From a virus (taxonomy: Duplodnaviria; Caudoviricetes): a stretch of 64,000 nt of DNA. Below the pieces are notes generated by a model. That model had not been told where the DNA came from, did not search any database, and worked only from the letters and a program-made list of their open reading frames with translations. A program made the position numbers and the translations under genes. The stretch is from positions 112,420 through 176,419 of the IMG/VR virus record IMGVR_UViG_3300021399_000103. One strand, given 5' to 3'. How positions within the stretch are numbered: the first letter of the stretch is position 1; each line of letters opens with the position of its first letter. This document shows positions 19,289 through 42,953 of this stretch, one piece after another.

Positions 19289-19501
19289 TTACGATTTAGG
19301 CGGTGGTTGGCGGCCGGCTTGGCTATAGCGTTCCAAAATGCCGTCCAATTCATTATGTATAATATCCAATTTATTTTTTAGTTCCTCATTTTCTCTCTGT
19401 ATCTTTTCGTTAATTCCAAGCAGGAGATAGCATCCGATCAACAGAAAAATTGATAAAATTATAAGTAAAATCATTAGCTGATCAATAGTAATAGTAAGCA
19501 T
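19289..19501 (-). CDS. Small membrane protein
   Basis: N-terminal hydrophobic helix. Confidence 0.5.
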   Translation of the reverse strand: MLTITIDQLMILLIILSIFLLIGCYLLLGINEKIQRENEELKNKLDIIHNELDGILERYSQAGRQPPPKS

Positions 19502-20046
19502 TATTGTTTCCTTTCTTTTATTTCTGAAATAATCTGTTCAATATTTACAGGGAACCCATTATGAGCATCCACTTCACAATGATAAATAAGCCCTTTATCA
19601 AAATCCGCAAATGGGTCTGTTGTATGAGTATGACCGCAAAGATTAATTGTAGCAGTTCTTTTATAGTCATCATAGTTAGAGCATAATGTTGGATAATGTG
19701 ATAGATAAAGATGATGCTTATGCACTTTAATTACATTAGCATATGTAATTTCCATTATATTTGTCGTATGATAAAGATAAGCATTAACTCTTCTATCGCT
19801 ATCGTGATTTCCTCTAACAATAAAGATATTTCCATTTAATTGACGCAAGCAATTTATGCCATCATCTAAATCTCCAAGCGTAACATCACCAAGATGATAT
19901 ACGGTATCACCAGGAGAAACAACACTATTCCACTTCTGGATTAAATCTTTATTCATTTCTTCAACTGTGTTGTATCCACGCGCCGCATAGATAAAATCTT
20001 TATTATGGTTGAAATGAGTATCGGATATTACAAAAATATTATCCAT
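19501..20046 (-). CDS. Calcineurin-like metallophosphoesterase
   Basis: SDTHFNH, HLGD, GNHD, SHYP, GHTH. Confidence 0.9.
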   Translation of the reverse strand: MDNIFVISDTHFNHNKDFIYAARGYNTVEEMNKDLIQKWNSVVSPGDTVYHLGDVTLGDLDDGINCLRQLNGNIFIVRGNHDSDRRVNAYLYHTTNIMEITYANVIKVHKHHLYLSHYPTLCSNYDDYKRTATINLCGHTHTTDPFADFDKGLIYHCEVDAHNGFPVNIEQIISEIKERKQ

Positions 20047-20533
20047 AGCTAATCACCTCGATTTTTACATTTTCAAGACTTAAAAAATCATTAACAGAAG
20101 GCCGGCGATATGAAGCCGCCATACTTCTAATTGAATCTTCTGGCACTCTTTTCATTTCTTCTCTTGGAGCATTTCTTTCTAAGCACACTTCAAGAGGTGT
20201 TTCGATAGCAACAAAATCAATTTCTTCAAAATCATTGCGGTTAATATTATAGAGCAATTTCCATCTTGAAGAGTTGTTAAGATGGGTAGCATCTGCCCAA
20301 ATTACATCATATTTTCCAATTCCGTTGTTAATTCTATTACAGAACTCATTGAATACTTCTTTTTCTTTTGAGAAGTAAGGAATGCCAGGAGTAATCATTG
20401 AAAAACGAATTTTATCGCGTGATACTATAAGATCTTCTGGATTCGCATGTTCTTTAATATAACTGGATTTGCCTGATGCCGGAACTCCGCACATTACTTT
20501 TAGTATTGTCATTTTCAAAATCTCCATTCTCAA
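20039..20533 (-). CDS. Polynucleotide kinase-like P-loop protein (AAA_33)
   Basis: CGVPASGKS, VSRDKIR, DATHL, CLERN. Confidence 0.85.
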   Translation of the reverse strand: MRMEILKMTILKVMCGVPASGKSSYIKEHANPEDLIVSRDKIRFSMITPGIPYFSKEKEVFNEFCNRINNGIGKYDVIWADATHLNNSSRWKLLYNINRNDFEEIDFVAIETPLEVCLERNAPREEMKRVPEDSIRSMAASYRRPSVNDFLSLENVKIEVISYG

Positions 20534-20723
20534 ATTTTCTCTTAAATTTTTCTACATCTTGTTGTGAATAACATTCATAATGATTTACTTCATCTTTGCA
20601 GTGAATACACCAGAGCTTCTTTAAGTGCCCCTTACCTCGTTGTGAAGCTGTGTTTCTAAAAACTGGAAGTCCTTCATTACCGCACTTCGTACAAAAAAAC
20701 CTGTGTTGTTCTAATTTTGCCAT
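20454..20723 (-). CDS. Zn-ribbon hypothetical protein
   Basis: CTKC...HLKKLWCIHC. Confidence 0.55.
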   Translation of the reverse strand: MAKLEQHRFFCTKCGNEGLPVFRNTASQRGKGHLKKLWCIHCKDEVNHYECYSQQDVEKFKRKFENGDFENDNTKSNVRSSGIRQIQLY

Positions 20724-20850
20724 TCAAATATAATCACCTCTTTACCTTTCTATATATATTATAACATATTTTTATTATTTTTTCAATTAAAATGTAAGCG
20801 ATTTGCGGCCGGGGCTACGCCGATCGTATTAACCGCCAGCCGCAAACTTC

Positions 20851-21057
20851 TTATCTAACGCACAAAGAGCATATTGAAACTTCTTGTGTCCGCCCTCCAG
20901 TGGCTGGAATAACAATACTATTTGTAGTATATGCCATACATCCTTTTCCTATACAATCTTCAAATTCTTCATGTTGTTCAGTAATAATAGTAGTATCTTT
21001 CCAAGCGGAAGTCGTATTATCAACATATATTCTTTTTCTAAATGGACATTTTTTCAT
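20851..21057 (-). CDS. Small Cys-rich hypothetical protein
   Basis: KCPFR...CIGKGCMAY. Confidence 0.5.
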   Translation of the reverse strand: MKKCPFRKRIYVDNTTSAWKDTTIITEQHEEFEDCIGKGCMAYTTNSIVIPATGGRTQEVSICSLCVR

Positions 21058-21069
21058 ATAAAAGTTCCT

Positions 21070-22206
21070 TTATTTTAAGAAATCTGGTAATTCATAATCT
21101 GGTAACAATTTGATAATTCTACTCAATTCAGCACCAGAATGAATGAAATCATCGGCATTTAATTTATTTCCAAGAGACTTAAATCCAAAATATGCTAATT
21201 TATGATCTTTAATTGCTTGTGCTACTGGTTTACGCTCGTGAGAGTATTCTTCATATAAACTTCTTACCATAACTAAGAAACGATCAATCTCCCATTTAAG
21301 AGTTTCAATTTGATATTGATAAAATCTAATTTGAGCGCCATAAGCATGATTACTAATATCAACTCTATCCCAGGTATTATCTAAAGCAAGTGAAACTGCG
21401 GTATCTTTAGATAACAAATAAGAGCCATTATTCCAGTCATGATGCGCTGCTAAATACTCTGGTGATTTGATTTTAATACGATGCCAATTTTTATCCACAA
21501 CAACAAAGCCTTCAGCATCAACATGAGAGGCGCAATTATTTAGAGCAGCGGCTGCCTTAATAGCATCTTCAAAAGTTGAAATTGAATATTCTTTTGGTTT
21601 CTGAACACCAATATTAAGATTATATTCGTTGCCAGTAATATTGTTACGAGTTCCAGTATGATATAATTTAATTTCTGGATATTCAACCACAATTTTATTA
21701 TATGGTGAAACTAATTCAAAAATATAAGTATAATCATGAGTTAATGCTTCAAAAGGAATATCTTTATAGTTTTTAGCAGAAACAATTATATCATAAAAAG
21801 TTTTATTAAAACCTTGAACATCGGCATTACGAGCATCAATAACTCCATTAGTTGCCCAGATCCATTCATCATTAAACCAATAGAGTTTAACAATAGAACC
21901 ATCTACTTTTTCTTGAACTCGTGCAGATGCCCAATCAATGTTATCAACATATGATTCATTATGATTACCGAATTTGCGGAAAGGCCAGCAGACAACATCT
22001 AAAGTATCAAGATTGATAATAATACCTCTTGCTTCTTGAACTATTGGATCAGAAAAATCGCAATCAATACTATAATTAAAAATAGCACGATAATCATTAG
22101 GAGCAAACTTGATTTTGATATTTTTTGCTTCAAGTAATTCTTTCCAATCATTTGGATGATTTCTTATGAATTGTACAATTAAAGATTTTTCATTCATTTT
22201 TATCAC
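21070..22206 (-). CDS. T4 Rnl1-like RNA ligase
   Basis: EARG, KFGN, EKVDGS (motif I), FEL, EGFVV (IV), RIKIKS (V). Confidence 0.88.
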   Translation of the reverse strand: MIKMNEKSLIVQFIRNHPNDWKELLEAKNIKIKFAPNDYRAIFNYSIDCDFSDPIVQEARGIIINLDTLDVVCWPFRKFGNHNESYVDNIDWASARVQEKVDGSIVKLYWFNDEWIWATNGVIDARNADVQGFNKTFYDIIVSAKNYKDIPFEALTHDYTYIFELVSPYNKIVVEYPEIKLYHTGTRNNITGNEYNLNIGVQKPKEYSISTFEDAIKAAAALNNCASHVDAEGFVVVDKNWHRIKIKSPEYLAAHHDWNNGSYLLSKDTAVSLALDNTWDRVDISNHAYGAQIRFYQYQIETLKWEIDRFLVMVRSLYEEYSHERKPVAQAIKDHKLAYFGFKSLGNKLNADDFIHSGAELSRIIKLLPDYELPDFLK

Positions 22207-22278: not shown

Positions 22279-23322
22279 TTAATAATCCATAATTTGTTCT
22301 TTCAGCTGATTGGCACGAAGTGGATTTCTTAATTTCTGCATTGCCTTTGCTTCAATTTGACGGGCACGTTCTCTTGTAACACCAAGAACTTTGCCAATCT
22401 CATCTAAAGTATGTCCAGTTCCATCTTCAAGCCCAAATCGCATTTGAACAACAAGTTTTTCTCTATCAGAAAGAGTTCCGAGTATATCATTAATAGCCTG
22501 TTTTGTGGCATCTCGTCTGACTTTTTCTTCTGGAGTTTCCTGATTTAAGTCTGGAACAATATCTGTCATATCAACATCATCATCTTCCGCAACTGGTTTA
22601 TCAATAGACAGGGGGTTTTTAGATGCGGCAAGGTACATTGCTACTTTCTCAGCGGTTAAACCAGTAGCAGCTCCAATTTCTTCTTCTGTTGGTTCATGTC
22701 CAAGAGTCTGAAGTAATTCGGCTCTTGCTTTAGAAATTTTAGACAATGATTCTACGACATGAACTGGAGTACGAATTGTTCTGCCCTGGTCAGCAATGGC
22801 TCTACTAATCGCCTGGCGCACCCAATATGTAGCATATGTAGAAAACTTAAATCCTTTTGTGTAATCATATTTATCAGCAGCTTTGTATAAACCAAGGTTA
22901 CCTTCTTGAACAAGGTCTAAAAAGCTCAGATTACATTTGCCAACATATTTTCTTGCGATAGAAGCTACTAAGCGAAGATTTGATTCAACTAATTTATTTT
23001 TTGCTTCAGTATCCCCATCGACTACTCGTTTCGCAAGATATAATTCTTGTTCTGGACTAAGTAACGGAATAGTGTGAATTTGACGCATATAAATTTTAGC
23101 TGAATTGCTTACTGAATTAAATTTTAAATCATCATTACTTTCTTCATCAAAATCTGGCAACACAACTTGAATATTAGCTTCATAAAGAGCGTCATATGCT
23201 TTTTCTAATTCTTCATCATCAGAGAAGATTTTTTCAATTTCAGCTTCATCAATTGTGTTATCTTTTGCTTTAGCAATTAATGCTTGAATCTTTTGTTCGA
23301 ATGTCATATTCAACACCTCCAT
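22279..23322 (-). CDS. Phage-encoded primary-type sigma70 factor (SigA/RpoD-like)
   Basis: [51 protein letters not shown]. Confidence 0.93.
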
Positions 23323-25778: not shown

Positions 25779-27317
25779 TTATTTTACTATTTCATATCGT
25801 GGAGAGTCAAGCTTCGCCATCATCAAGTCATAGCCAGTCTTGCCAGTAGCAATTGTCTGATAGATAGATGGACTCATGCCAGAGACAAATGAAGCACCTT
25901 CTCCAATCATTGGGATATTATTTTGACGAGCATCTACGTTCCAGAATACAAGGTTTGGAATCTTATATCCATACTTTTCCCATTCAATAGCAATCTTTTC
26001 AAGCTCCGTATTAATAGTTGCTTTTGAGAAAGTAGGAAACTCTGTTTTTGAGTATGAATACCAACCAGGCCGAGCGCAACTATCAAATTCCATATCACTA
26101 ATGATAATGATATTTTCTGGGATATCTGCTTGAGCACAGTTATTCTTAATAGCAGTATTAAGAATAAGGTCAAAGACACCTTTAATATTAGTGTTTTCAC
26201 AAATATTCTTAGAGTAAATTCTCTTAACCTTATCAACAAAGTCAACACCTTCAATCTCAATCAACTGTGGATCATGAGAGAAAGTAATGAAGTGATTATG
26301 ATAAGGGCCTTTTGCTTTTTCCGCACAGCACAAACCAAGAGAAATAGCGATGTTCATTGGCTGATTTTTGTCTCCATAATGAAGCATTGAAGCGGAAGTA
26401 TCTACAACTGCGATACCATTAAACTTAAAATCATCAAATGATTCCAAATAATTATCCCAATACTTATTAACTATAGTACGGTCAAAGGTATCAGCCTTAT
26501 TATATGAGTATTTGGTAATATTAATGGCTTCACCAACAATCTCATATGGATAAAGGTCTTTTGCGTTTACTCTCTTGGTTTCATCCTGGATAAATTCCTT
26601 ATAAGACTGGATATTCTTATTCTGCATCATGCGCTCAACATCATGACGAGCAAACGCATTTTTGTAGATAAAACCAGCTTTCGAAGGGATTTTATCAAAT
26701 TCAATTTCGCTCCAACGACCAGCAGACATAAGTCTTTCAAGAACATTGATGCGCTCACGAAGGATAGATAATGTCTTACGATACTGACGTGGAGTCATAT
26801 GCATCTGGACTCTTGTATGTCTACCCAGGCGCTTACTTTCCTTTGATGAAGTATTTTCTGATTTCATCCACTTTGCTAAAAGTGAAGGAGTTTTAGACTG
26901 AGTGTCAAGAACAAGCTGATGCTTCATAAACTTCCACATATCATCTTCAACTTGAGTCCCAATAAGTGCGTAAAGGTCGTCCCAGCGTCCATATTCAGGA
27001 ATGTTCTTGATATTTCTACGCATTGCTTCTGGATCCTGCTTAGCGAGATCAGTTAAGCAAAGGCGGAAGAAGCGTCTTTCTCCCTGGCCGCCACGAATGT
27101 CGCGGATATAGAAAAGACACTTTAAGGCATAAGTAGGATTTTCCACATATGCCTTACGGAACATTAAAATAACATCTTCGTCAGAGCGATTACGCATTGC
27201 CGCCCCCATAGCAAACATATCTAAAAGATCACTTTTGGTTGTCTTATGAGTGATGCCACCATTTTCGGTATAAGTGAAATTGGTTTCATCTTTAAGGGCA
27301 TTTAAAAATGTAGTCAT
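25779..27317 (-). CDS. DUF2828-type helical + vWA protein (Ro60/TROVE-like architecture)
   Basis: TENG, RDIRGGQGER, YGRWDDL, LAKW; vWA MIDAS VDTSASM...ISDMEFD, VFWNV; Ro60 likeness is inference. Confidence 0.8.
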   Translation of the reverse strand: MTTFLNALKDETNFTYTENGGITHKTTKSDLLDMFAMGAAMRNRSDEDVILMFRKAYVENPTYALKCLFYIRDIRGGQGERRFFRLCLTDLAKQDPEAMRRNIKNIPEYGRWDDLYALIGTQVEDDMWKFMKHQLVLDTQSKTPSLLAKWMKSENTSSKESKRLGRHTRVQMHMTPRQYRKTLSILRERINVLERLMSAGRWSEIEFDKIPSKAGFIYKNAFARHDVERMMQNKNIQSYKEFIQDETKRVNAKDLYPYEIVGEAINITKYSYNKADTFDRTIVNKYWDNYLESFDDFKFNGIAVVDTSASMLHYGDKNQPMNIAISLGLCCAEKAKGPYHNHFITFSHDPQLIEIEGVDFVDKVKRIYSKNICENTNIKGVFDLILNTAIKNNCAQADIPENIIIISDMEFDSCARPGWYSYSKTEFPTFSKATINTELEKIAIEWEKYGYKIPNLVFWNVDARQNNIPMIGEGASFVSGMSPSIYQTIATGKTGYDLMMAKLDSPRYEIVK

Positions 27318-27334
27318 TTCCTTTTTCTCCTTTC

Positions 27335-27400
27335 AAGACCCTAAGTCTATTATTGAAAAAATGGCACAATCCATAAACTAGAAATTGCTGTTAGGGTCTT
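27335..27400 (-). promoter_or_regulatory. CAGCAA-helix element A: structured 5' leader of the DUF2828 gene
   Basis: AAGACCCTAA-CAGCAA...TTAGGGTCTT perfect 10-bp helix ending just before the SD AAGGAG. Confidence 0.75.
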
Positions 27401-27433
27401 TTTTATTACATTATTATTATATCATAATTTTTA

Positions 27434-27868
27434 TTATTTTTCAAGTATTTGTAAATATTTGTAAATAGTACTTCTACTACAATTTAGCTTTCTTGCAGCT
27501 TCAGTTTTTGTTATTTCATTGTTTTTTATTTTATTAAGATAATCAAAAAATTGATCTGGAATATCTTCTAAAGTAGTTTTCTTTCTTCCGCCTGTATAAG
27601 TACCTGATTCTTTTTGTTTCTTTATTGCTGCTTTTATTAGTTCTGAATGAGAAATATGATTGTCTTCACTTATTCCATGATGTAGTATATTATGACATTC
27701 TGTACATATAGGAACTATATTTGTAATAATATCTTTACCCCCTAAACTAATAGGTACTATATGGTGATATATTATTAAATCATGACATTCTTTTCCGCAA
27801 TTACAACATTTTGTTCCAAGTTGATCAATTAATATTGTTCTATTAATTTGTGAACTTTTTCTGCTCAT
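27434..27868 (-). CDS. HNH endonuclease with C-terminal HTH
   Basis: CCNC, HHIVPISLGG, CTECHNILH, TKTEAARKLNCSRSTIYKY. Confidence 0.85.
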   Translation of the reverse strand: MSRKSSQINRTILIDQLGTKCCNCGKECHDLIIYHHIVPISLGGKDIITNIVPICTECHNILHHGISEDNHISHSELIKAAIKKQKESGTYTGGRKKTTLEDIPDQFFDYLNKIKNNEITKTEAARKLNCSRSTIYKYLQILEK

Positions 27869-28693: not shown

Positions 28694-28695
28694 CG

Positions 28696-28766
28696 TGCCG
28701 GATGACGGAATCGAACCGCCCTCAGAGGTTTACAAGACCACTGTAATACCGATATACTAATCCGGC
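28696..28766 (-). tRNA. tRNA-Thr(UGU)
   Basis: Cloverleaf; loop CTTGTAA; T-loop TTCGATT. Confidence 0.88.
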
Positions 28767-28773
28767 AGAAATC

Positions 28774-28890
28774 AAGACACCTTTTACTGTGCTTTACCAT
28801 TTAGCTACTCCCCCATAACAGTGGGGGAGACAAGATTCGAACTTGTAATCTCAGGGTCCAAAACCGAGAGTTAATTGCTGAAAGTGTCTT
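28774..28890 (-). ncRNA. CAGCAA-helix element B: circularly permuted tRNA mimic (Y RNA/YrlA-like)
   Basis: AAGACACTTT-CAGCAA; T-arm ACAAG-TTCGAAT-CTTGT, closed acceptor CTCCCCCA/TGGGGGAG, D-arm GCTAAATGGTAAAGC; closed by GTGTCTT. Confidence 0.8.
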
Positions 28891-28894
28891 TAAG

Positions 28895-28968
28895 TGACGA
28901 TACGGAGATTCGAACTCACGATTTCCACCTTGAGAGGGTAGCGAACTAAACCATTATTCGATATCGCC
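28895..28968 (-). tRNA. tRNA-Glu(CUC)
   Basis: Loop CTCTCAA. Confidence 0.85.
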
Positions 28969-28973
28969 AGAAG

Positions 28974-29046
28974 TACTGCCAACGGGACTCGAACCCGTAT
29001 TGCAACCTTGAAAGGGTTGTGAACTAACCTCTTATTCGATGACAGC
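28974..29046 (-). tRNA. tRNA-Glu(UUC)
   Basis: Loop CTTTCAA. Confidence 0.9.
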
Positions 29047-29053
29047 ATATTTC

Positions 29054-29157
29054 AAGTCGCTTTTGTTTTGGAGTGGAATTGAACCACCAATAGACAGTTT
29101 GGAATACTGTTGCCTTAACCTTTTGGCTACCATCAGATTTTTTGCTGTAAGCGACTT
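29054..29157 (-). ncRNA. CAGCAA-helix element C: D, anticodon (UCC) and T arms inside the helix, without a full acceptor stem
   Basis: AAGTCGCTT...AAGCGACTT; D GCCAAAAGGTTAAGGC; ACAGT-ATTCCAA-ACTGT; GTGG-TTCAATT-CCAC. Confidence 0.78.
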
Positions 29158-29160
29158 AAG

Positions 29161-29234
29161 CGGTCCCGACGGGATTCGAACCCGCAACCCTCGCCGTGAC
29201 AGGGCGATACGCTAACCAGTTGCGCCACGAGACC
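29161..29234 (-). tRNA. tRNA-Asp(GUC)
   Basis: Loop CTGTCAC. Confidence 0.92.
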
Positions 29235-29239
29235 ATAAC

Positions 29240-29315
29240 AAGACAGATATTTTTTATATGATTTTAGTTCAAAAGTCTAATCCAGTATAATTTTCAATAT
29301 TGCTGTATCTGTCTT
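29240..29315 (-). ncRNA. CAGCAA-helix element D: minimal, with anticodon-like hairpin
   Basis: AAGACAGATA-CAGCAA...TTAG-ACTTTTGAA-CTAA...TATCTGTCTT perfect 10-bp helix. Confidence 0.72.
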
Positions 29316-29319
29316 TAAG

Positions 29320-29393
29320 TGCGAATGGAGTGATTCGAACACTCGACCCCAGCGTTATCAGCACTGTGCTCTAGCCTACTGAGCTACACTCGC
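29320..29393 (-). tRNA. tRNA-Ile(GAU)
   Basis: Loop CTGATAA. Confidence 0.92.
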
Positions 29394-29756
29394 ATATATC
29401 GGCATCCATTGCCATTATATAGAAAGTTTCATCGTCAATGTAATCCTCATCAATTAAAATACCTTCATCCATTAAGTATTGATATAATGCTTCACACATA
29501 ATTTTTACTCCTTTCTTTATTTACATATATATTATAACATTTATTTTTTAATTTTTCAAATAAAGATTATCGAGTGGGTTGCAACGATGTTTTATTAATG
29601 GAGGTTCTCTCCTCTCAGTGTCCCAACTTCTTATTATCTTCTTCGATAATCACTACGAAGCACAACCTCCGCGCGCAGAGTGTCTTACCCTGGAGTTCCC
29701 TCGCTTTGCCGGCTATCCACCAATTATTACTTGGTTCGAGGTGGTGGGATTAAATC

Positions 29757-30353
29757 TTACGGCCACTCGACCAAGTGGAGGCCAAACTGTTTACCATTGT
29801 TTAGCTCTGATCCTATTTCTGTACAATATGCAACCTGACCACCAACAGATGTAAGATCTCTAAATAAGTCACCAGCAATATCCTGATAAAGAGTACTGAT
29901 AATGCCATGTGCATCATTAAGGTTATCATTAAAGAACTGAACAACTTCCTTCTTGAAAACAACATAGGTAAAATCAATATATCTATATCCTTCCTGCGCA
30001 GGAGCTACACAATAGCAGAATGCGGGGTTTCCTTTAAAAGCAGTTTCGAATAATTCTTTGTTAGAAGCAAAAGCCAAGTTAGGAAGCTTTTTTCCACATT
30101 CTACACCAATTTCTAGATCAACATTACCATAATTAATCTTTTCTGGGAGCAACTTACGAATAGCTACAGCCTTTTCTGGATTGTTAGTAGAAAGTACGAT
30201 AGATGGTTCGCCTGTCCAAGTTATATTACAAGCGATTTGAGGATCTCCGTCAAACATTGCCCGGATTTCATTAATGCAAGTAATCCAAGGAGGTGAAATC
30301 TTAAGTCTTACACCAGTCGAACTGTTTACATTGGATAAAAAAATTCTTGTCAT
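29757..30353 (-). CDS. Conserved phage hypothetical protein
   Basis: ISPPW...FKGNP...YVVFKKEVVQFFNDNLND; RBS and promoter. Confidence 0.65.
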   Translation of the reverse strand: MTRIFLSNVNSSTGVRLKISPPWITCINEIRAMFDGDPQIACNITWTGEPSIVLSTNNPEKAVAIRKLLPEKINYGNVDLEIGVECGKKLPNLAFASNKELFETAFKGNPAFCYCVAPAQEGYRYIDFTYVVFKKEVVQFFNDNLNDAHGIISTLYQDIAGDLFRDLTSVGGQVAYCTEIGSELNNGKQFGLHLVEWP

Positions 30354-30413
30354 TTATCTTTTCTCCTTATTTTTTACATATATATTATAACATTTATTTT
30401 TTTGAAAATCAAT

Positions 30414-30926
30414 TTATTTTGAGTATTTATCGGCAATTGTAGAAGCAGCATATGAGTTAGGTTTGATTTCATAATCATATCCCACTGCGCGCACCCATCC
30501 TTCTAACTCTTGGATATATTTACTTGTTGGGCCATTTTTACCAACATCCATATGAATTGATAAATGGATATGAGAGTTTTCTTTTTGAATATCAAGACCT
30601 TTATTTTTCAATTTTTCAATTAAGATTTCCGCAGCATCTAAAGAAGCTTGAGTTTCTTCATATAACTTTTGGTGTAATTGATTATTTTTATACGCCTTAT
30701 GATATTTAGAATGTAAGAAGAAAATACCACCATTATACAATCTATGAAGTGTAATAGATAAAACTACCTTGGTTTCAGAACAAGTTTGAGAATCTGTTCC
30801 AATGGCTAAAATATAATCTTTTTCTGGATCTTTATCTATATAATCTATAATTTTATCCGCAACCATATCAAAAGTGATATCTCCTTGTGATAGATTGCGG
30901 AATAAGATATCTTCTGTTATATTCAT
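30414..30926 (-). CDS. YkuK-family RNase H-like protein
   Basis: IGTDSQ, GGIFF, YEET, IHMDVG, IKPNSYAASTIADKYSK. Confidence 0.85.
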   Translation of the reverse strand: MNITEDILFRNLSQGDITFDMVADKIIDYIDKDPEKDYILAIGTDSQTCSETKVVLSITLHRLYNGGIFFLHSKYHKAYKNNQLHQKLYEETQASLDAAEILIEKLKNKGLDIQKENSHIHLSIHMDVGKNGPTSKYIQELEGWVRAVGYDYEIKPNSYAASTIADKYSK

Positions 30927-30951
30927 ATCAAACTCCTTTTCATATAAAAAG

Positions 30952-31027
30952 CCTCCTCTATAGGATTCGAACCTATGCGAAACCTGGTTTCGTAGACCAG
31001 TGCTCTGTCCATCTGAGCTAAGAGGAG
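30952..31027 (-). tRNA. tRNA-Arg(ACG)
   Basis: Loop CTACGAA. Confidence 0.9.
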
Positions 31028-31032
31028 AAAAG

Positions 31033-31104
31033 TCGTCCCAGTAGGATTCGAACCTACAGCCTTGACTTTGTAAGAGTCACAATCTCCCGTTGATATATGG
31101 GACG
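31033..31104 (-). tRNA. tRNA-Val(UAC)
   Basis: Loop CTTACAA. Confidence 0.85.
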
Positions 31105-31109
31105 ATAAG

Positions 31110-31183
31110 TAGCAGAAGTGGGAGTCGAACCCACACTCTATCGGGTATGAACCGATTGCTTTTGCCAGTTAAGCTATTCTGCT
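31110..31183 (-). tRNA. tRNA-Met(CAU), elongator (or Ile2)
   Basis: Loop TTCATAC. Confidence 0.85.
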
Positions 31184-31562
31184 AACGAAACATAATTTTC
31201 CAAGTAATAATAATTTGAATTAAATGGAAAAGTTGATCTTGCCATAAATTAATTTTGAACTTATTTGCTTTTAGATCATCTATGAGCGCATGAATAATGG
31301 TGTTAATTAATACCATTATTACAATAGTAATATGCCAATCTGTATTTGTAAATAAACACCAAGCTAACATTGGCATTAACATCATACAAGACCATTCAAA
31401 AGCGTGTTCAATTAATGCGGGAATGTAATCATATTTATAAAGTGGATTTGTTGTATTTTCCTCCCACCACTTTTTCTGCTTCATTGAAGCCAAAATACCT
31501 TGCATTCCATAATCTTCTATAATGTGGCAAAAAATCATTCCTAATAATATAATATATTTCAT
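31182..31562 (-). CDS. DUF3307-like membrane protein
   Basis: HIIEDY.MQ, HAFEW, HALID, DQLFH; hydrophobic. Confidence 0.7.
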   Translation of the reverse strand: MKYIILLGMIFCHIIEDYGMQGILASMKQKKWWEENTTNPLYKYDYIPALIEHAFEWSCMMLMPMLAWCLFTNTDWHITIVIMVLINTIIHALIDDLKANKFKINLWQDQLFHLIQIIITWKIMFR

Positions 31563-31564
31563 AG

Positions 31565-31644
31565 CACCCAGGCAAGGAGTCGAACCCTTTGACGATAGAT
31601 TTGGAGTCTATTGGAGGCCCGGCCTCCTTTAAGTCTACCCAGAT
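31565..31644 (-). tRNA. tRNA-Trp(CCA) with atypical D region
   Basis: ATAGA-CTCCAAA-TCTAT; T-loop TTCGACT; D region is a long linker plus GGAGGC-CGG-GCCTCC. Confidence 0.8.
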
Positions 31645-31744
31645 ATATTTATGTCTGTTTACCCCAACTCCAACAGACCGCATCAGTCGCCCAAAAATTA
31701 CCACCGCCATATAGACGGGCTGATGTCCCCAACTATGATTTACG

Positions 31745-31818
31745 TGCGGCGGGCGGGATTCGAACCCGCAAAACTCTGGGTTTGAGCCAGATATGTATGC
31801 CAGTTCCATCACCGCCAC
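31745..31818 (-). tRNA. tRNA-Leu(CAA), short variable arm
   Basis: Loop CTCAAAC. Confidence 0.85.
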
Positions 31819-31825
31819 AAATCAG

Positions 31826-31897
31826 GTTGACCTATCAGAATTGAACTGATATAACTGGAGCCACAATCCAGGGCACTACCATTGTGCTAAGGCCAAC
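31826..31897 (-). tRNA. tRNA-His(GUG)
   Basis: Loop TTGTGGC; G-1/C73. Confidence 0.9.
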
Positions 31898-31903
31898 ATA
31901 AAG

Positions 31904-31975
31904 AGGACCAGGTCGGATGCGCGCCGACGATCGGGGTGTTGCAGACCCCTGCCTTAACTCCTTGGCTACAGGTCC
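31904..31975 (-). tRNA. tRNA-Cys(GCA), non-canonical T-loop
   Basis: Loop CTGCAAC; U73; T-loop CGCGCAT. Confidence 0.75.
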
Positions 31976-32166
31976 ATTCTGTTCATTAACTTATCTATTC
32001 CTTCTGGAGAATAACCAGCAACTTTTAATGCTTTAAACCAAGCATACATTGCTTCTTCATAAGTAGCACCTTCATTAACTTCAATCTCACAATATAAGGC
32101 ATATTGTGAATCGTATCCAATATCCTTATCTTCAAAAGCTTTTTCTGTAACAATAATTTTCAACAT
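31966..32166 (-). CDS. Hypothetical protein
   Basis: Promoter and RBS; stop overlaps tRNA-Cys 5' end. Confidence 0.5.
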   Translation of the reverse strand: MLKIIVTEKAFEDKDIGYDSQYALYCEIEVNEGATYEEAMYAWFKALKVAGYSPEGIDKLMNRMDL

Positions 32167-32225
32167 ATTTATTACCTCTTTCTTTATATATATATTATAT
32201 CATATTTTTTTTATTTTTCAAATTT

Positions 32226-32660
32226 CTATTTTTTATCAAACAGCTTTGTATAACTATCAGTAGCGTCACAGAATAATACTACCTCTTTATTTATAGGAAT
32301 ATAATTTACTTCATATTTAACAAATGGAATTGGTTTAACTTCTTCCCAATCGTAACATTCGCTATCATAACAATTATCAGTATAATAATACGCAAAATAT
32401 CTGTCTTTAACTTTAATAATTAAAGTTCTATATGCACAACTTTTATAAGTATCATATTCATCTAAAACGTCATCAAAAATGAAGTTATTACCTAGTTCTG
32501 TTAATAATCTCCAAGATTCATCATCTCCTACAAGAGAACCATGATCTTCCCAATTAAGTAACATTGCTTCAGCAAGAGTATCATCATCGACCTTATCAGA
32601 ATAATATAATTTTTCAATAGAAATAGGCTCTAAGATTAATTGCATTTGTTCAAATTTCAT
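32226..32660 (-). CDS. Acidic hypothetical protein
   Basis: Promoter and RBS. Confidence 0.55.
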   Translation of the reverse strand: MKFEQMQLILEPISIEKLYYSDKVDDDTLAEAMLLNWEDHGSLVGDDESWRLLTELGNNFIFDDVLDEYDTYKSCAYRTLIIKVKDRYFAYYYTDNCYDSECYDWEEVKPIPFVKYEVNYIPINKEVVLFCDATDSYTKLFDKK

Positions 32661-32781
32661 CTTCTTTTCCTTTCTTTATACAATAATTATATTATATATT
32701 TTTTAATTTTTCAGCTAAAGAAAAATACTGTAAGATTTTTCTTACAGTATTATTATATAATAATTTTATTATTTTTTCAAA

Positions 32782-34059
32782 TTAGTTTTTATGAGGTAAG
32801 ATTAAATTAGTAATAATTCCAAGAATTAAAGCACAAGCTACTGAAGTTAAAGTAATTGCGCCAATAGATAAGGTTAAACCACCAATTCCAGTTATTAAAA
32901 TAATTGAAATAATCATAACATTATTTATATCTTCAAAATCAACATTCTTAAACATTTTCAAACCAGAAGAAGCAATATAACCATATAATAGCATTGTAAC
33001 TCCACCCATTACACATGCGGGAATACTTGACAAGATTGTCGCAATTGGGCCAATAAAGGAAATGATTAAACACTCTAATGCCGCAACCGCAATTACAAAT
33101 GTTGAAGCTGATTTAGTAAAAGCTGTTGTAGCAATGGATTCGCCATATGTTGTATTAGGACAACCTCCGAATATTGCTCCACCAATAGATCCAATACCAT
33201 CACCAAGTAATGTTCTATGTAAACCCGGATCTTTAAGTAGATCTTGGTTTACTATTGTAGAAAGATTGCGGTGGTCGGCTAAGTGTTCCGCAAAGACGAC
33301 GAATGCTACCGGAACATAAGCAACGGCAATTGTTCCAATATATCCTGGAGTTAATTCAGAAAAAGCACCGAGCGCAGAAATGAATACAAAATTTGGAATG
33401 GAAAATAAGTGTATATTAGAGAAAATAGTTAAATTAATAATTGGGATACCGGCACAAGATATTGCTAAAGCGGCAATATATCCTGTAAAAATACCGAAGA
33501 TAAATGGAATCATTTTTACTCTTGGAGAGCCATATGCGGAAGCAAGCATTGTTGTAAATAAAGCAATCATACCGCATAGAATACCCCAATAACCACCAGT
33601 AGTAAGATTAGTGATTGCGCTGCCTGCTAAGCCGAGCCCTATAATCGCCACTGTTGGACCGATTACAACGGGAGGCATCAATTTTTCAATCCAGTTAGTT
33701 CCGACCGCTTTAACGACAGCCGCAATAATCACATATATAAGACCCGCAAAAATTGCGCCAATAATGAGACCAAGATATCCAAGTCCTATTGTTGCGGCTC
33801 CTGCGAATGCCGCAGTCATTGAGCCAATAAAAGCAAAACTTGAACCAAGAAATACTGGACTTCTCATTTTAGTAAAAAAAAGGTAAATAAAAGTTCCAAT
33901 ACCAGCTCCGAAAATTGCGGCAGAAGGATCAAGACCATTACCAATAATCATTGGTACTGTAATTGTAGCTGCCATAATTGCCAAAACCTGTTGGAACGCA
34001 AGAATAATAGCCTCTTTAATTGGAGGTTTTTCATTAATCTGATAAATTAAACTATTCAT
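32782..34059 (-). CDS. Uracil/xanthine permease (NCS2, UraA/PyrP-like)
   Basis: FLGSSFAFI, PPVVIGP, EHLAD, GLHRTLLGDG, PNTTYGES. Confidence 0.92.
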   Translation of the reverse strand: MNSLIYQINEKPPIKEAIILAFQQVLAIMAATITVPMIIGNGLDPSAAIFGAGIGTFIYLFFTKMRSPVFLGSSFAFIGSMTAAFAGAATIGLGYLGLIIGAIFAGLIYVIIAAVVKAVGTNWIEKLMPPVVIGPTVAIIGLGLAGSAITNLTTGGYWGILCGMIALFTTMLASAYGSPRVKMIPFIFGIFTGYIAALAISCAGIPIINLTIFSNIHLFSIPNFVFISALGAFSELTPGYIGTIAVAYVPVAFVVFAEHLADHRNLSTIVNQDLLKDPGLHRTLLGDGIGSIGGAIFGGCPNTTYGESIATTAFTKSASTFVIAVAALECLIISFIGPIATILSSIPACVMGGVTMLLYGYIASSGLKMFKNVDFEDINNVMIISIILITGIGGLTLSIGAITLTSVACALILGIITNLILPHKN

Positions 34060-34124
34060 ATCTTTTTCTCCTTACTTTTTATTATACCAAAAAATAAAAA
34101 GTAAGTCAAAAAAGAGTGGTATTT

Positions 34125-34415
34125 CTACCACTCTATATGTCGAGGAAGTACTTTCATATTCATCTCGTTTTCATCTAATGAATATTGTAATGATTCTAAT
34201 TTTTTCAAATCAGAAATCTTATAACCATTACGGTTAGTTTTTGCGGAGCATATAGGACATGAACAATGAATTTTATTTTTGCTTAAACGATGTTTTTGTT
34301 TTTCCCAAAAATCTTTATACCATCCTTCATCTTCCCAAACGTGTCTAATAATATTTGCCTTTTTATGGATTTTTCTCCAATCATTATGGCGACGTTCTGC
34401 TTTTGTTCTACGCAT
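34125..34415 (-). CDS. Small basic protein with HCSCPIC motif
   Basis: AGGAGG RBS. Confidence 0.55.
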   Translation of the reverse strand: MRRTKAERRHNDWRKIHKKANIIRHVWEDEGWYKDFWEKQKHRLSKNKIHCSCPICSAKTNRNGYKISDLKKLESLQYSLDENEMNMKVLPRHIEW

Positions 34416-34560
34416 AAAATACCTCCTAATTATTAGGCTAGGCCTCCGAGAGCAGGACGCTTAACCCTGCATCTTCCTTACCGCGGCGGATATGCTATCT
34501 TGGAAACGATTTTGCACCATCTCGTTCTTTTAATTTTTCCTATTTCCTCCTAATAAAAAG

Positions 34561-34633
34561 CGGCTCCAGATGGACTTGCACCATCCACACCGACATTTTC
34601 AGTGTCGTGCTCTACTGTCTGAGCTACAGAGCC
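34561..34633 (-). tRNA. tRNA-Phe(GAA)
   Basis: Loop CTGAAAA; T-loop TGCAAGT. Confidence 0.82.
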
Positions 34634-34741
34634 AATTATTATATCAACCAAGCCTTCTACCAACAGTTGATATGTATCTGACACCACACGTTATTTACAG
34701 CCACGCGTTACGGCTTTGGCTAGGTCAGATGTCCCTTTTAG

Positions 34742-34851
34742 TGGAGCCCTAGGGATTTGAACCCTCGTTTCTGGTGACGAACCAGCCTCTTGCCATTGGA
34801 CATACTCACAATGTTGTCATCGTTGCCCCTTTGTCTCCCGAAGATGGCCCC
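34742..34851 (-). ncRNA. tRNA-like RNA with Ala-type acceptor (G3.U70) and no canonical anticodon arm
   Basis: GGGGCC...AGGG-TTCAAAT-CCCT-AGGGCTCCA; directly downstream of tmRNA. Confidence 0.55.
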
Positions 34852-34857
34852 ATATAG

Positions 34858-35206
34858 TGGAGCTGCGGGGAGTCGAACCCCGGTCTTGTTCAGTATACTA
34901 TCGCAATTCTCTTTATCCACAGCTTACTCAAATATTAACTTAGCAAACATATTATTTGAGAACTTTTGTTTGCGGCAGCCCGCATATGAGATCGGATTAA
35001 GCGGCGAGCGCACCTATTCCGTTTGCTTTAATTTATACTCTAACTAGCAAGCTAAAGCTACTTGATAGGAAGGAGCAAAGAAATTCTTGATCTTTGCGAA
35101 TGTGCTTTTAATAAAGTTTGCGTTTAATTTTTAATTTAGTGGTTAGAGTCACTACCTCGCTGCGAATTTTGACCTCAACTGCCAATCGATTTCCATTTAC
35201 AACCCC
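34858..35206 (-). ncRNA. ssrA: tmRNA; tag ANFIKSTFAKIKNFFAPSYQVALAC*
   Basis: 5' GGGGTTGTAAATGGAAATCGA, resume codon after TTAAAC, 3' GACCGGGGTTCGACTCCCCGCAGCTCCA. Confidence 0.93.
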
Positions 35207-35210
35207 ATAT

Positions 35211-35325
35211 ATCTTGGGTAAGGATTTGCACCTTACATAGTTTTCGCCTTGGTCGTCATAAGCTGTCACCTCCGCTAAACCTCGTATCCTATTAACTCAG
35301 CGTCTACCTATTTCGCCACCAAGAT
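35211..35325 (-). ncRNA. tRNA-like RNA with D and T arms and expanded middle
   Basis: ATCTTGG/CCAAGAT, GGCGAAATAGGTAGACGCT, GTAAGG-TGCAAAT-CCTTAC. Confidence 0.65.
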
Positions 35326-35329
35326 AATT

Positions 35330-35662
35330 TTAATCTAATTCCCACCAAAAGTCAAAGGATTTGTTATAAGTTGAATCATAAACATTCATTTTCTTATTTC
35401 TTCTGGCGTAACGATGCCCATATGTTTTTAGATACTTACTGCGATGGCCGCGCCATCTTCTCTGAATGTAAGCTCCTTCGGCAGGAATGCCACGCATTGT
35501 ATTCCAATCCCAATCATAGTCACTCCATCCTACAGGCCACGGATACCAATGGTCACCGCCAATATCAATTAAATGTTTAAGTTTTCTTTTTTCTTTGCGG
35601 AGGTGCGCATGACGCATACTTTTGGACTTACCTGAATAAGGATCTTTATATCTATGTGCCAT
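35330..35662 (-). CDS. Very basic Trp-rich hypothetical protein
   Basis: GGAGG RBS before MAHRYK. Confidence 0.55.
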   Translation of the reverse strand: MAHRYKDPYSGKSKSMRHAHLRKEKRKLKHLIDIGGDHWYPWPVGWSDYDWDWNTMRGIPAEGAYIQRRWRGHRSKYLKTYGHRYARRNKKMNVYDSTYNKSFDFWWELD

Positions 35663-35676
35663 ATATACCTCCATAG

Positions 35677-35748
35677 TCCGGATGGGAGGAATTGAACCTC
35701 CACTCTTGCCCTTATAAGGAGCCCGCTTTACCTTTAAGCTACACCCGG
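35677..35748 (-). tRNA. tRNA-Ile(UAU)
   Basis: Loop CTTATAA. Confidence 0.8.
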
Positions 35749-35970
35749 TTATTCTTCGTCACCAGTCCAGATACGTTCAACCCAATCTTGCCAACTGATT
35801 TCTGGATAAAAATCTGAAAATACCCAAGTATATAATATATCACCAACTGCGTTCCAATTTTCAATCGTATTTTCACAATTTTTATATTTAGCTAAATCTA
35901 ATCTTAGTCCTTGATTATCTATTGGAATATGATCTAATAAATCAATAATTACTTCTGATAATTCTCTCAT
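35749..35970 (-). CDS. Hypothetical protein
   Basis: AGGAG RBS; between tRNAs. Confidence 0.5.
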   Translation of the reverse strand: MRELSEVIIDLLDHIPIDNQGLRLDLAKYKNCENTIENWNAVGDILYTWVFSDFYPEISWQDWVERIWTGDEE

Positions 35971-35987
35971 ATATATCTCCTAAAAAG

Positions 35988-36060
35988 TGACCCCGGAGAG
36001 GCTCGAACTCTCGCTCCCGTGATTAAAAGTCACGTGCTTTACCAACTAAGCTACGGGATC
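35988..36060 (-). tRNA. tRNA-Lys(UUU)
   Basis: Loop CTTTTAA. Confidence 0.92.
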
Positions 36061-36066
36061 AAATAA

Positions 36067-36140
36067 CACCCTCAGCTGGATTTGAACCAGCGACCTACGG
36101 TTTAGAAGACCGTTGCTCTATCCAGTTGAGCTATAAGGGC
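36067..36140 (-). tRNA. tRNA-Arg(UCU)
   Basis: Loop CTTCTAA. Confidence 0.92.
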
Positions 36141-36145
36141 ATGAA

Positions 36146-36189
36146 GTTCTATCCTATTTAAAGACCAGGATTGAACGAGTAGAGGTCTT
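36146..36189 (-). ncRNA. H-type pseudoknot in tRNA spacer (copy 1)
   Basis: P1 AAGACC/GGTCTT; P2 GTTC-A-ATCC/GGAT-A-GAAC; linker TAAATA. Confidence 0.65.
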
Positions 36190-36191
36190 AG

Positions 36192-36265
36192 TCGGGATAG
36201 CAGGATTCGAACCTGTGACCTCATCGTCCCAAGCGACGCGCTCTACCAAACTGAGCTATATCCCG
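36192..36265 (-). tRNA. tRNA-Pro(UGG)
   Basis: Loop CTTGGGA. Confidence 0.92.
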
Positions 36266-36276
36266 ATAAAAGGTGG

Positions 36277-36759
36277 CTATTTTACCACTCTTTTTATAAC
36301 AGCTAAACCAATAATCATGGTAATAGTATCAATAGCAAATGCCACCATACTTTTTATAATTTTTACTTCAAATGGAATACTGTATAAGAAGCATTCAATT
36401 CCAGTTTTTGCAACAAGAATACCGAGGGCTACAAAGAAAATAATTGCAACAATTCTTTTCCAAGTTTTTTCAGTATGCTTAAACACAAATCCACATCCTA
36501 ATCCAATAATTAAGTTAGCAACGAACCAACCAATACTGAATCCATATGGAGAGAATAAAATACTCTCAATACCACATCCTACCGCTCCGATAAAAGCACC
36601 CCACATACCAAACATCGCACATCCTACCGTCAAGGCTATATAGCCAAGATCCAAAGAGATAGCTCCAATAAGTGGGATTTTCATCATAGCACTAAGCACT
36701 ACATAAAGTGAAGTTAAAATCGCAATACCACTAATTTTTCTTACTGTTGGTTTATTCAT
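36277..36759 (-). CDS. ECF transporter S component (substrate unknown)
   Basis: ~160 aa, 5-6 TM helices, KISGIAILTSLYVVL, IP..G.ISLDLG..FG..GAFIGAVG. Confidence 0.8.
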   Translation of the reverse strand: MNKPTVRKISGIAILTSLYVVLSAMMKIPLIGAISLDLGYIALTVGCAMFGMWGAFIGAVGCGIESILFSPYGFSIGWFVANLIIGLGCGFVFKHTEKTWKRIVAIIFFVALGILVAKTGIECFLYSIPFEVKIIKSMVAFAIDTITMIIGLAVIKRVVK

Positions 36760-36764
36760 AATTT

Positions 36765-36884
36765 TCTCCTTTCGTATTTGAATAAACCAAAAATACTAAG
36801 GATAGTATTTTTGGGGATAGTTTAACGACATAATTTGCGACAAATACAAACATCTTGGTCGAACCTTTATAGTTGGTTAAACTA
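36765..36884 (-). promoter_or_regulatory. Candidate riboswitch-like pseudoknotted leader of the S-component gene
   Basis: P1 TAGTTTAAC/GTTAAACTA; loop TTTGTATTTG pairs with CAAATACGAA next to the SD. Confidence 0.5.
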
Positions 36885-36885
36885 A

Positions 36886-36961
36886 TGGACCGTATGGGAG
36901 TCGAACCCATCTGATATTCTGCTTGCAAGGCAGATGACCACCCCTGGCAGTCCCACAGCCC
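36886..36961 (-). tRNA. tRNA-Ala(UGC)
   Basis: Loop CTTGCAA; G3.U70. Confidence 0.85.
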
Positions 36962-36966
36962 AAGAA

Positions 36967-37010
36967 GACTCTACTTTATTTAAAGACTGAAGTTGAGTCG
37001 GTATAGTCTT
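36967..37010 (-). ncRNA. H-type pseudoknot in tRNA spacer (copy 2)
   Basis: P1 AAGACT/AGTCTT; P2 GACTC-A-ACTT/AAGT-A-GAGTC; linker TAAATA. Confidence 0.65.
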
Positions 37011-37012
37011 AG

Positions 37013-37086
37013 CTGAGGTGGAGGGACTTGAACCCCCGAATGACCGAGTCAAAGTCGGTTGCGTTTACCAGCTTCGCCACACCCCA
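37013..37086 (-). tRNA. tRNA-Gln(UUG)
   Basis: Loop CTTTGAC. Confidence 0.92.
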
Positions 37087-37124
37087 ATAGCTAGCTCCAT
37101 ATTACAATGGAGCAGTTTTAATTT

Positions 37125-37706
37125 TTACATCCAAGTAAAAGCGTATCCTAATGTTGCTTCAGTTTTATCTTCAAACACATCAGAAACAAATACTCTATGT
37201 GTCATCTGATTTACAGCTACAAGAGCAACAGAAACATCGTCGTCAGGTCCTGCAGAGATCGTTTTTGCCATAAAGATATGATTTAAACCTTTTGTCATCT
37301 TTGTTCCAAGGTAAGCGAATGGCTCAAATCTTAGTCCTATATAAATCTCAAAAGCATCATCCCAAGTTGCTTTTGCGTTTTCATCCATATCGAAAGTGTC
37401 ATTAATTGTTACGCCACCAAGACCTGTTCCGCTATCTAAAATATGCTCAATATTTACAAGAGTTGCGGTCATATCTCCTGGTTTTTCATTAAAGATTAAC
37501 ATTACAATGTTAGTTGTATCTTTACCAGTTAGAACAGTCTGTTTTGCCAAAACCGCATGGTTTGTACCATTTACCACTTGAGAGCCGAGATATGCAATTT
37601 CTTTATATTCAGCTCCAGTCATAACTTCATTTAGATTTGCCATTGTCGTAGCAACTTTCTGCGGCAATTTACTAACCTGTACATCAATGTTCCAATTTCC
37701 CGTCAT
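37125..37706 (-). CDS. Hypothetical protein with two internal repeats
   Basis: YKEIAYLGSQVVNGTNH and FEPFAYLGTKMTKGLNH. Confidence 0.65.
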   Translation of the reverse strand: MTGNWNIDVQVSKLPQKVATTMANLNEVMTGAEYKEIAYLGSQVVNGTNHAVLAKQTVLTGKDTTNIVMLIFNEKPGDMTATLVNIEHILDSGTGLGGVTINDTFDMDENAKATWDDAFEIYIGLRFEPFAYLGTKMTKGLNHIFMAKTISAGPDDDVSVALVAVNQMTHRVFVSDVFEDKTEATLGYAFTWM

Positions 37707-37731
37707 TTATTCTGTCCTTTCTTTCTAAAAG

Positions 37732-38108: not shown

Positions 38109-38111
38109 ATA

Positions 38112-38186: not shown

Positions 38187-38190
38187 ATAA

Positions 38191-42842: not shown

Positions 42843-42953
42843 AAGGCACTTTATCTTGCTTTAACCATTTAGCTACTCATCAAAATTTTTGGCTGATAAG
42901 ACAGGAATCGAACCTGCATATAAGAATAATCTTATGTTTGCTGTATGTGCCTT
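42843..42953 (-). ncRNA. CAGCAA-helix element E: circularly permuted tRNA mimic
   Basis: AAGGCAC-ATA-CAGCAA; T-arm GCAGG-TTCGATT-CCTGT; acceptor CTTATCA-GCCA..TGATGAG; D-arm GCTAAATGGTTAAAGC; GTGCCTT. Confidence 0.8.

What the first reader, a model, noticed from the sequence alone, without database searches (positions are those of the whole stretch)
27317..27410. The same helix forms the 5' leader of the DUF2828 gene (possible autoregulation)
Seen: a promoter (TTGAAA..TGATATAAT) starts transcription a few nt before element A, and its 10-bp helix ends immediately before the SD AAGGAG. The interior contains TGGATTGTG, identical to the 5' side of this phage's tRNA-His anticodon arm. Inference: free protein binds its own leader and tunes translation to the supply of partner RNAs. 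This is the strongest internal link between the motif and the protein.
Basis: partly seen in the sequence, partly recalled or inferred. Interest (0 to 1): 0.75.

Follow-up and report, generated by a model that had tools for sequence, protein, structure and literature searches.

The report
Partner-RNA handle before Ro60-like gene
The message for this phage's Ro60-shaped RNA-binding protein starts with a copy of the "handle" carried by the phage's small tRNA-like RNAs, right against the ribosome-binding site, and about nine in ten close relatives keep a rearranged mini-version of that handle at the same place, so the protein probably binds its own message to limit its own synthesis, though no binding has been shown.

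Summary
Observation confirmed. On the minus strand: phage promoter, helix 27400-27391/27344-27335 with CAGCAA, an unpaired G, SD AAGGAG, then the 512-aa DUF2828 gene, whose model folds like Ro60. Four sister handles lie in the tRNA arrays.

Homologue survey: five close orthologues keep this leader (7-bp core, G 2 nt from the SD, free interior). New here: 107 of 121 near homologues carry instead an 18-nt hairpin, CUU-G-nnn-AAG. It reads as a circular permutation of the handle's end: same terminal pairs, same G, 7-bp covarying stem, conserved downstream C. Only 4 of 738 control leaders have either form. In a reverse scan, 40 of 46 such hairpins precede DUF2828. A leader-only mini-hairpin is unlikely to be a free RNA, which supports a cis-acting site.

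The tRNA-His 9-mer is weak (P 0.015-0.09) and not conserved. Binding and repression are untested, and some SD-abutting handles precede other genes.

Autogenous repression is about 50% likely.

The parts
27416..27444 (-). Sigma70/SigA-type promoter with extended -10 (phage consensus); +1 inferred near 27409
   Evidence: also present 12-18 nt before the helix in four of five orthologous leaders, the fifth contig is cut
27391..27400 (-). 5' arm of handle helix; the first 7 nt (AAGACCC) are the conserved core, followed by a 3-nt linker
27385..27390 (-). CAGCAA motif, 7 nt after AAG as in the array handles
27345..27384 (-). Variable interior; holds a possible worn tRNA-His anticodon arm (27373-27365) whose loop lacks three bases
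   Evidence: not conserved in orthologues
27334..27344 (-). 3' arm of helix ending CTT, plus the conserved unpaired G (27334)
   Evidence: G follows the stem in 94% of 213 handles
27327..27332 (-). Shine-Dalgarno AAGGAG, 2 nt after the G and 9 nt before ATG
   Evidence: same spacing in all six leaders of the clade
25779..27317 (-). DUF2828 + DUF7788 protein, 512 aa; helical repeat region plus vWA domain with DxSxS; predicted Ro60-like fold
28774..28890 (-). Array handle RNA with YrlA-like cargo (T arm, closed stem, D arm)
   Evidence: (YrlA 29.3 bits, E 0.0012, below gathering 69)
29054..29157 (-). Array handle RNA enclosing a tRNA body without acceptor stem
29240..29315 (-). Array handle RNA with short, anticodon-arm-like cargo
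42843..42953 (-). Array handle RNA with T-arm and D-arm-like cargo
31825..31896 (-). tRNA-His; possible source of the 9-mer in the leader interior

Best explanation
Autogenous translational control by target mimicry. The DUF2828 protein is a Ro60-like ring (predicted) whose partners are the handle RNAs of the tRNA arrays (inferred). Its mRNA starts about 9 nt before a copy of the handle (inferred +1). The helix end with its unpaired G lies 2 nt from the SD, so a bound 58-kDa protein would block the 30S subunit without any refolding (inferred). Array RNAs would soak up the protein first, and only surplus protein would shut off its own synthesis (inferred). The recognised core is probably the helix end AAG/CUU, the unpaired 3' G and a C 10-11 nt after AAG, because most relatives keep just these in a permuted hairpin. 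The interior, tRNA-His-like or not, is incidental cargo. Shown: sequence, conservation, covariation, gene specificity, predicted fold. Not shown: transcription start, binding, repression.
For: Handle (type A) or permuted hairpin (type B) in 113 of 121 non-redundant leaders at 48% or more identity, against 4 of 738 control leaders from the same loci. Held-out metagenome set, fetched after B was defined: 52 B, 2 A, 4 neither of 58. Reverse scan: of B-pattern matches that fold into 6 bp or more, 40 of 46 precede DUF2828; of those that do not fold, 0 of 47. In two relatives listed in full, the exact B core occurs once per record, in this leader. B covaries (96.8% paired, 20 double changes) and has G-U pairs, so it is RNA. 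B shares A's terminal four pairs, unpaired G and 7-bp length and has C at +10/+11 in 69 of 92, against 7.8 expected. A and B were never both found next to the SD of one leader, and this genome has no B before any gene start that I could see. G-to-SD distance piles up at 1-2 nt (8 protein-selected leaders), the rest spread over 10-85 nt. No tRNA or terminator separates handle and SD. The model matches Ro60 structures 9kop, 1yvr, 2nvo at E 2e-6 or better. Handles flank the gene in 7 of 8 cultured phages. Precedent for a hairpin next to a free SD blocking 30S binding when the protein binds: thrS (PMC3858243).
Against: B lacks most of CAGCAA, the most conserved part of A, and the A-B likeness was noticed after the fact. 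In 90 of 124 B leaders the stem starts 20-23 nt before the SD, at the edge of the ribosome footprint. SD-abutting handles also precede unrelated ORFs in tRNA regions (L035, L039, L312/L315; in L034 a nucleotidase, with DUF2828 second in the operon). The six A leaders are one clade, so one event, not six. In distant homologues handles lie 10-85 nt upstream, downstream of the gene, or are absent, as ordinary neighbouring RNA genes would.
Confidence: 0.5

Rival explanations
1. The protein (or its complex) binds the leader, but the result is protection or processing, not repression: a protein-capped stem near the 5' end shields the mRNA from 5'-to-3' decay or marks a cleavage site.
For: A and B both sit near the 5' end of a transcript: promoter within 45 nt in 62 of 91 B leaders and 12-18 nt before A. 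Handles also follow a promoter in front of other genes (L034, L035). Thermus phage Ro60 with its RNAs slows PNPase (PMC12135203). The host is probably a Firmicute, where 5' exonuclease RNase J acts (own knowledge).
Against: Protection does not need the fixed 1-2 nt distance to the SD. Positive feedback on an RNA-binding protein's own message is less usual than negative feedback (own knowledge).
Confidence: 0.2
2. The element is simply one more partner-RNA gene, co-transcribed in front of the protein gene and cut out, as Y RNA genes lie upstream of rsr in bacteria. Closeness to the SD is compact packing.
For: [quoted passage not shown] Tandem handles lie just upstream of the gene in Bacillus PBC2, Listeria LMTA-34, Campylobacter F352 and L037. 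The interior is cargo like that of array RNAs: 33 of 97 short interiors hold an anticodon stem-loop against 9 in shuffles.
Against: It does not explain the leader-only 18-nt B hairpin in about 88% of close relatives, nor the fixed spacing. No downstream tRNA offers an RNase P cut to free the 3' end.
Confidence: 0.2
3. The leader elements are read by another factor (a host nuclease or another phage protein) that recognises the AAG/CUU-G helix end, or B is an unrelated regulatory hairpin that only looks like A.
For: B lacks most of CAGCAA and has a preferred GUCC loop (95 of 124). No DUF2828 protein has a published RNA ligand in the papers searched.
Against: B is found almost only before this gene, shares four pairs, the G, the stem length and the downstream C with A, and several B leaders read literally as A's 3' arm, three bases, then A's 5' arm.
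Confidence: 0.1

Closest known systems
Ro60/Rsr with Y RNAs: bacterial and phage YrlA/YrlB (Chen et al. 2014, PMC4201824; Rfam RF02553) and Thermus phage phiLo Ro60 with Yrl1/2 (PMC12135203; PDB 9KOP)
   Same: Predicted helical-repeat plus vWA ring; RNA with a terminal stem, a conserved single-stranded motif near the 5' end and tRNA-like cargo, encoded next to the protein gene; one array element scores weakly as YrlA.
   Different: Protein is DUF2828/DUF7788, not TROVE by Pfam, 10-14% identical to Ro60, no sequence hit in the PDB. Motif is CAGCAA, not GNCGAAN0-1G or CGAA. I found no report of a Ro60 protein binding or regulating its own mRNA leader.
Autogenous translational repression by target mimicry: E. 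coli thrS/ThrRS and rpsO/S15 (PMC3858243), ribosomal-protein operons (PMC4538822, PMC10931766)
   Same: A copy of the protein's presumed RNA target in its own 5' leader, next to a free SD, conserved in structure across homologues.
   Different: The mimicked targets are small handle RNAs rather than rRNA or tRNA; the regulator would be a Ro60-like ring; most relatives use a circularly permuted half-site; nothing is tested at the bench.
Dictyostelid Class I RNAs (Rfam RF01414; Kjellin et al. 2021, PMC7919456)
   Same: Short closing stem, conserved 11-nt motif next to its 5' arm, variable interior, about 60 nt, AAG start and CUGU end. The leader element scores 19.7 bits against this model.
   Different: Far below gathering (41.5; E 2.2). 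Class I RNAs are free eukaryotic RNAs with a DUSE promoter and a known RRM partner (Rnp1A); this copy is part of a phage mRNA.

Membership tests
Ro60/TROVE protein | Helical-repeat ring closed by a vWA domain with MIDAS motif | tested here: met
   AF2 model (pLDDT 67, pTM 0.54): top 12 Foldseek hits are all Ro60, TM 0.40-0.54; DxSxS invariant
Ro60/TROVE protein | Sequence match to TROVE (PF05731) or solved Ro60 chains | tested here: not met
   Pfam gives DUF2828 and DUF7788 only; no Ro60 hit by phmmer at E up to 1
Ro60/TROVE protein | Binds a Y RNA stem | not testable with these tools
   needs a binding assay
YrlA-type Y RNA (leader element) | 5' motif GNCGAAN0-1G | tested here: not met
   the leader has CAGCAA at that place
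YrlA-type Y RNA (leader element) | tRNA-like domain (T arm, stem, D arm); Rfam RF02553 score | tested here: not met
   no YrlA match at 27335-27400; only the sister at 28785-28854 scores, 29.3 bits against 69
YrlA-type Y RNA (leader element) | 5'-3' terminal stem, encoded next to a Ro-fold gene | tested here: met
Dictyostelid Class I RNA | Rfam RF01414 gathering score | tested here: not met
   19.7 bits against 41.5, E 2.2
Dictyostelid Class I RNA | Short closing stem, motif next to the 5' arm, variable interior | tested here: met
Autogenous translational operator (target mimicry) | Target-like structure in the gene's own leader, at or next to the ribosome-binding site | tested here: met
Autogenous translational operator (target mimicry) | Structure conserved with covariation and specific to that gene among homologues | tested here: met
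   113 of 121 against 4 of 738; 40 of 46; covariation. Exceptions for type A
Autogenous translational operator (target mimicry) | The encoded protein binds the leader and lowers its own translation; the true target competes | not testable with these tools
   needs EMSA, toeprint and reporter assays

The most novel reading that the evidence does not exclude
An undescribed phage Ro60-like ribonucleoprotein system controls its own protein through a leader mimic of its partner RNAs, and evolution has produced two interchangeable operators: the full CAGCAA handle (this phage) and a circularly permuted 18-nt hairpin (most relatives). The pair would define the minimal DUF2828 binding site and would be, as far as I could search, the first case of a Ro60-fold protein regulating its own mRNA.
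Probability: 0.45. Interest if true: 0.75.

Novelty: new variant of a known kind. Interest (0 to 1): 0.6.

Why it matters
DUF2828 genes occur in at least 702 cultured phage records and have no tested function. The link between protein and handle RNAs has rested on gene neighbourhood. A site kept in the gene's own leader, in two topologies, is a tighter link and gives a cheap assay: an 18-nt hairpin or 66-nt handle in a reporter, with predicted loss-of-function changes. If it holds, it shows feedback control in a Ro60-type system, names the RNA determinants the protein reads, and opens the function of a widespread phage particle that lies beside tRNA arrays and RNA-repair genes.

Tried and rejected
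tRNA-His identity as a functional signal: rejected; each orthologous leader has a different interior, the loop is incomplete, and chance is 0.015-0.09. SD hidden inside the handle helix: rejected; the SD lies outside. A second weak SD/early-CDS pairing is predicted here and in L001 (0.75, 0.95) but is 0.13-0.42 in the other four, so not counted. Intrinsic terminator or attenuator: none found in the leader. DNA operator reading of type B: unlikely, as stems covary and contain G-U pairs. B as the junction of two tandem handles: attractive, but junction spacers seen are 7-14 nt, not 4-5; unproven. Direction of change: trees nest the six A leaders among B leaders, but the AU test does not reject B as one clade (p 0.133), so gain versus retention is open. 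Known Rfam family: none at gathering. Overall folding z-score: uninformative. Two review papers were not held. Searches were input or time-out slips. Complex prediction not used: it cannot take RNA as partner.

Full report
1. Observation. The window lies in a 176,419-bp virus record. On the minus strand the sequence shows a promoter (27444-27416), a 10-bp helix (27400-27391 with 27344-27335) whose 5' arm is followed by CAGCAA, an unpaired G (27334), AAGGAG (27332-27327) and the ATG of a 512-aa ORF at 27317. The promoter is the phage's standard type: 10 copies in the window against 0.09 expected. The same 'handle' occurs four more times, all in tRNA arrays, and nowhere else in the genome; shuffles give 0-1. 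The helix forms with probability near 1.0 and leaves the SD outside it.

2. The protein. Pfam calls it DUF2828 plus DUF7788. It has no sequence match to solved Ro60 chains. An AlphaFold2 model of moderate quality (pLDDT 67, pTM 0.54) has only Ro60 structures as its 12 best matches, the best being Thermus phage Ro60 at E 9e-8. Homologues occur in 702 cultured phage records. An RNA ligase, a kinase-like AAA_33 protein and a metallophosphoesterase are encoded 3.5-6 kb downstream.

3. The handle. In 213 handles collected without filtering on their ends, the consensus is a 7-bp stem beginning AAG and ending CUU, three bases, CAGCAA, a free interior, and an unpaired G after the stem in 94%. Handles lie next to the gene in 7 of 8 cultured phages: upstream in Bacillus PBC2, Listeria LMTA-34, Enterococcus EF5 and Campylobacter F352, downstream in a mycobacteriophage, a Felix-type phage and Staphylococcus CF9, and not within 5 kb in a Vibrio phage. 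One array copy in the window scores weakly as YrlA and the leader copy weakly as a Dictyostelium Class I RNA, both below gathering; the Class I build is indeed similar.

4. Five orthologues at 65-89% identity keep the same leader: promoter, handle, G, two bases, AGGAG. Only 7 bp are shared, and the interior differs in each. These six form one clade (100/100), so they count as one event. The same abutting layout appears in three distant lineages (L372/L374, L037, L274), found first by a motif search that required it. Other distant homologues have the last handle 10-85 nt from the SD, or none.

5. The unexpected result. Most close homologues lack the handle in the leader and carry a small hairpin, stem-CUU-G-nnn-AAG-stem (type B; first seen). 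Among 121 non-redundant, protein-selected leaders at 48% identity or more there are 6 A, 107 B and 8 neither; among 738 other leaders of the same loci, 2 A and 2 B. In a set fetched after B was defined, 52 of 58 are B. With no sequence filter, the best hairpin in 90 of 115 leaders is closed by CUU with a G-starting 4-nt loop. In the reverse direction, a scan of viral contigs for the B core plus SD gave 46 matches that fold, 40 of them before DUF2828, and 47 that do not fold, none before DUF2828. B shows 34 different stems, double changes and G-U pairs. In two relatives listed in full, the exact core occurs once, in this leader.

B reads as the handle's open end closed by a loop. Its four loop-proximal pairs equal the handle's four terminal pairs, its first loop base is the handle's unpaired G, its stem is 7 bp, and a C stands 10-11 nt after AAG in 69 of 92 leaders against 7.8 expected, where the handle has the first C of CAGCAA at 11. 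Several leaders read as the handle's 3' arm, three bases, then its 5' arm. This likeness was noticed after the fact and B lacks the rest of CAGCAA, so it is an inference. An 18-nt hairpin found only in this leader is hard to read as a free RNA gene; it points to a cis-acting site under selection in front of this gene.

6. The tRNA-His match. The 9-mer is real. By chance a match that long occurs with P 0.09 against all tRNAs of the window and 0.015 against anticodon arms. Short handle interiors often hold anticodon stem-loops (33 of 97 against 9 in shuffles), so a worn His arm is plausible. The loop lacks three bases and no orthologue shares it; L002 has a Cys-type loop instead. It carries no weight for regulation.

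7. Against the simple story. Handles abutting an SD also precede small ORFs in tRNA regions (L035, L039, L312/L315) and a nucleotidase that heads an operon with DUF2828 second (L034); the four of these records that could be searched all encode DUF2828. This may be a small regulon or mere packing. Most B hairpins lie about 20 nt before the SD. Y RNA genes commonly lie upstream of rsr and are processed out (PMC4201824). No expression data could be had.

8. Mechanism. Most likely (0.5): surplus DUF2828 binds the leader handle and blocks 30S loading, while array RNAs compete, as ThrRS does at hairpins next to a free SD in thrS (PMC3858243). Rivals: binding that protects or processes the mRNA (0.2), a mere co-transcribed RNA gene (0.2), another factor or an unrelated B (0.1). 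It works like an autogenous operator and like a Ro60/Y RNA system, but it fails the sequence tests for TROVE, YrlA and Class I RNA membership.

9. Novelty. Ten literature searches found no description of the handle, of a DUF2828 RNA partner or of Ro60 autoregulation; most subscription journals are not covered. The scan itself has noted the handle/protein pairing 143 times and SD-abutting handles on other genomes; these are unchecked notes, not support. Verdict: new variant of a known kind, interest 0.6.

Noticed in passing
window 19501-22206 (minus): RNA-repair-type trio downstream of DUF2828: T4 Rnl1-like ligase (21070-22206), AAA_33 kinase-like protein (20039-20533), metallophosphoesterase (19501-20046).
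   Followed up: partly
window 22279-23322 (minus): Phage-encoded sigma-70 factor with regions 1.2, 2, 3 and 4, with its own promoter at 23377-23350.
   Followed up: no
window 28695-42836 and 54252-54325; tmRNA 34857-35206: 27 tRNA genes plus a tmRNA; ARAGORN finds no tRNA-Trp in this window.
   Followed up: no
window 29064-29136 (minus): tRNA body (46 bits in Rfam, missed by ARAGORN) whose acceptor stem is replaced by the handle; anticodon-like loop centred on TCC.
   Followed up: partly
window 27434-27868 (minus): HNH endonuclease with C-terminal HTH; its last codons overlap the -35 box of the DUF2828 promoter.
   Followed up: no
window 27300-27330 (minus): Predicted pairing of the SD with early coding sequence, here and in L001 only.
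   Followed up: partly
L002 and L411 leaders: L002's handle interior is a full Cys-type anticodon stem-loop; L411's holds a second CAGCAA in a hairpin loop.
   Followed up: no
L034 / L371: Promoter, handle, SD, deoxyribonucleotidase-like ORF, then DUF2828; the end of the first ORF holds a worn handle (CATCAA) whose G abuts the DUF2828 SD.
   Followed up: partly
L035/L081, L039, L312, L315: SD-abutting handles before small ORFs of 37-78 aa in tRNA regions; in L035/L081 the DUF2828 gene of the same genome has a type B leader. Possible small regulon.
   Followed up: partly
Type B leaders, e.g. L007, L008: The commonest loop region (GUCC followed by AAG or GAG) resembles the GGUCCGA that vertebrate Ro60 contacts; may be coincidence.
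   Followed up: no
window 32782-34059 and 30414-30926 (minus): A xanthine/uracil permease and an RNase H-like protein (PF04308) inside the tRNA region.
   Followed up: no
L135 (Listeria phage LMTA-34): An RtcB-type tRNA-splicing ligase is annotated 1.3 kb after DUF2828.
   Followed up: no
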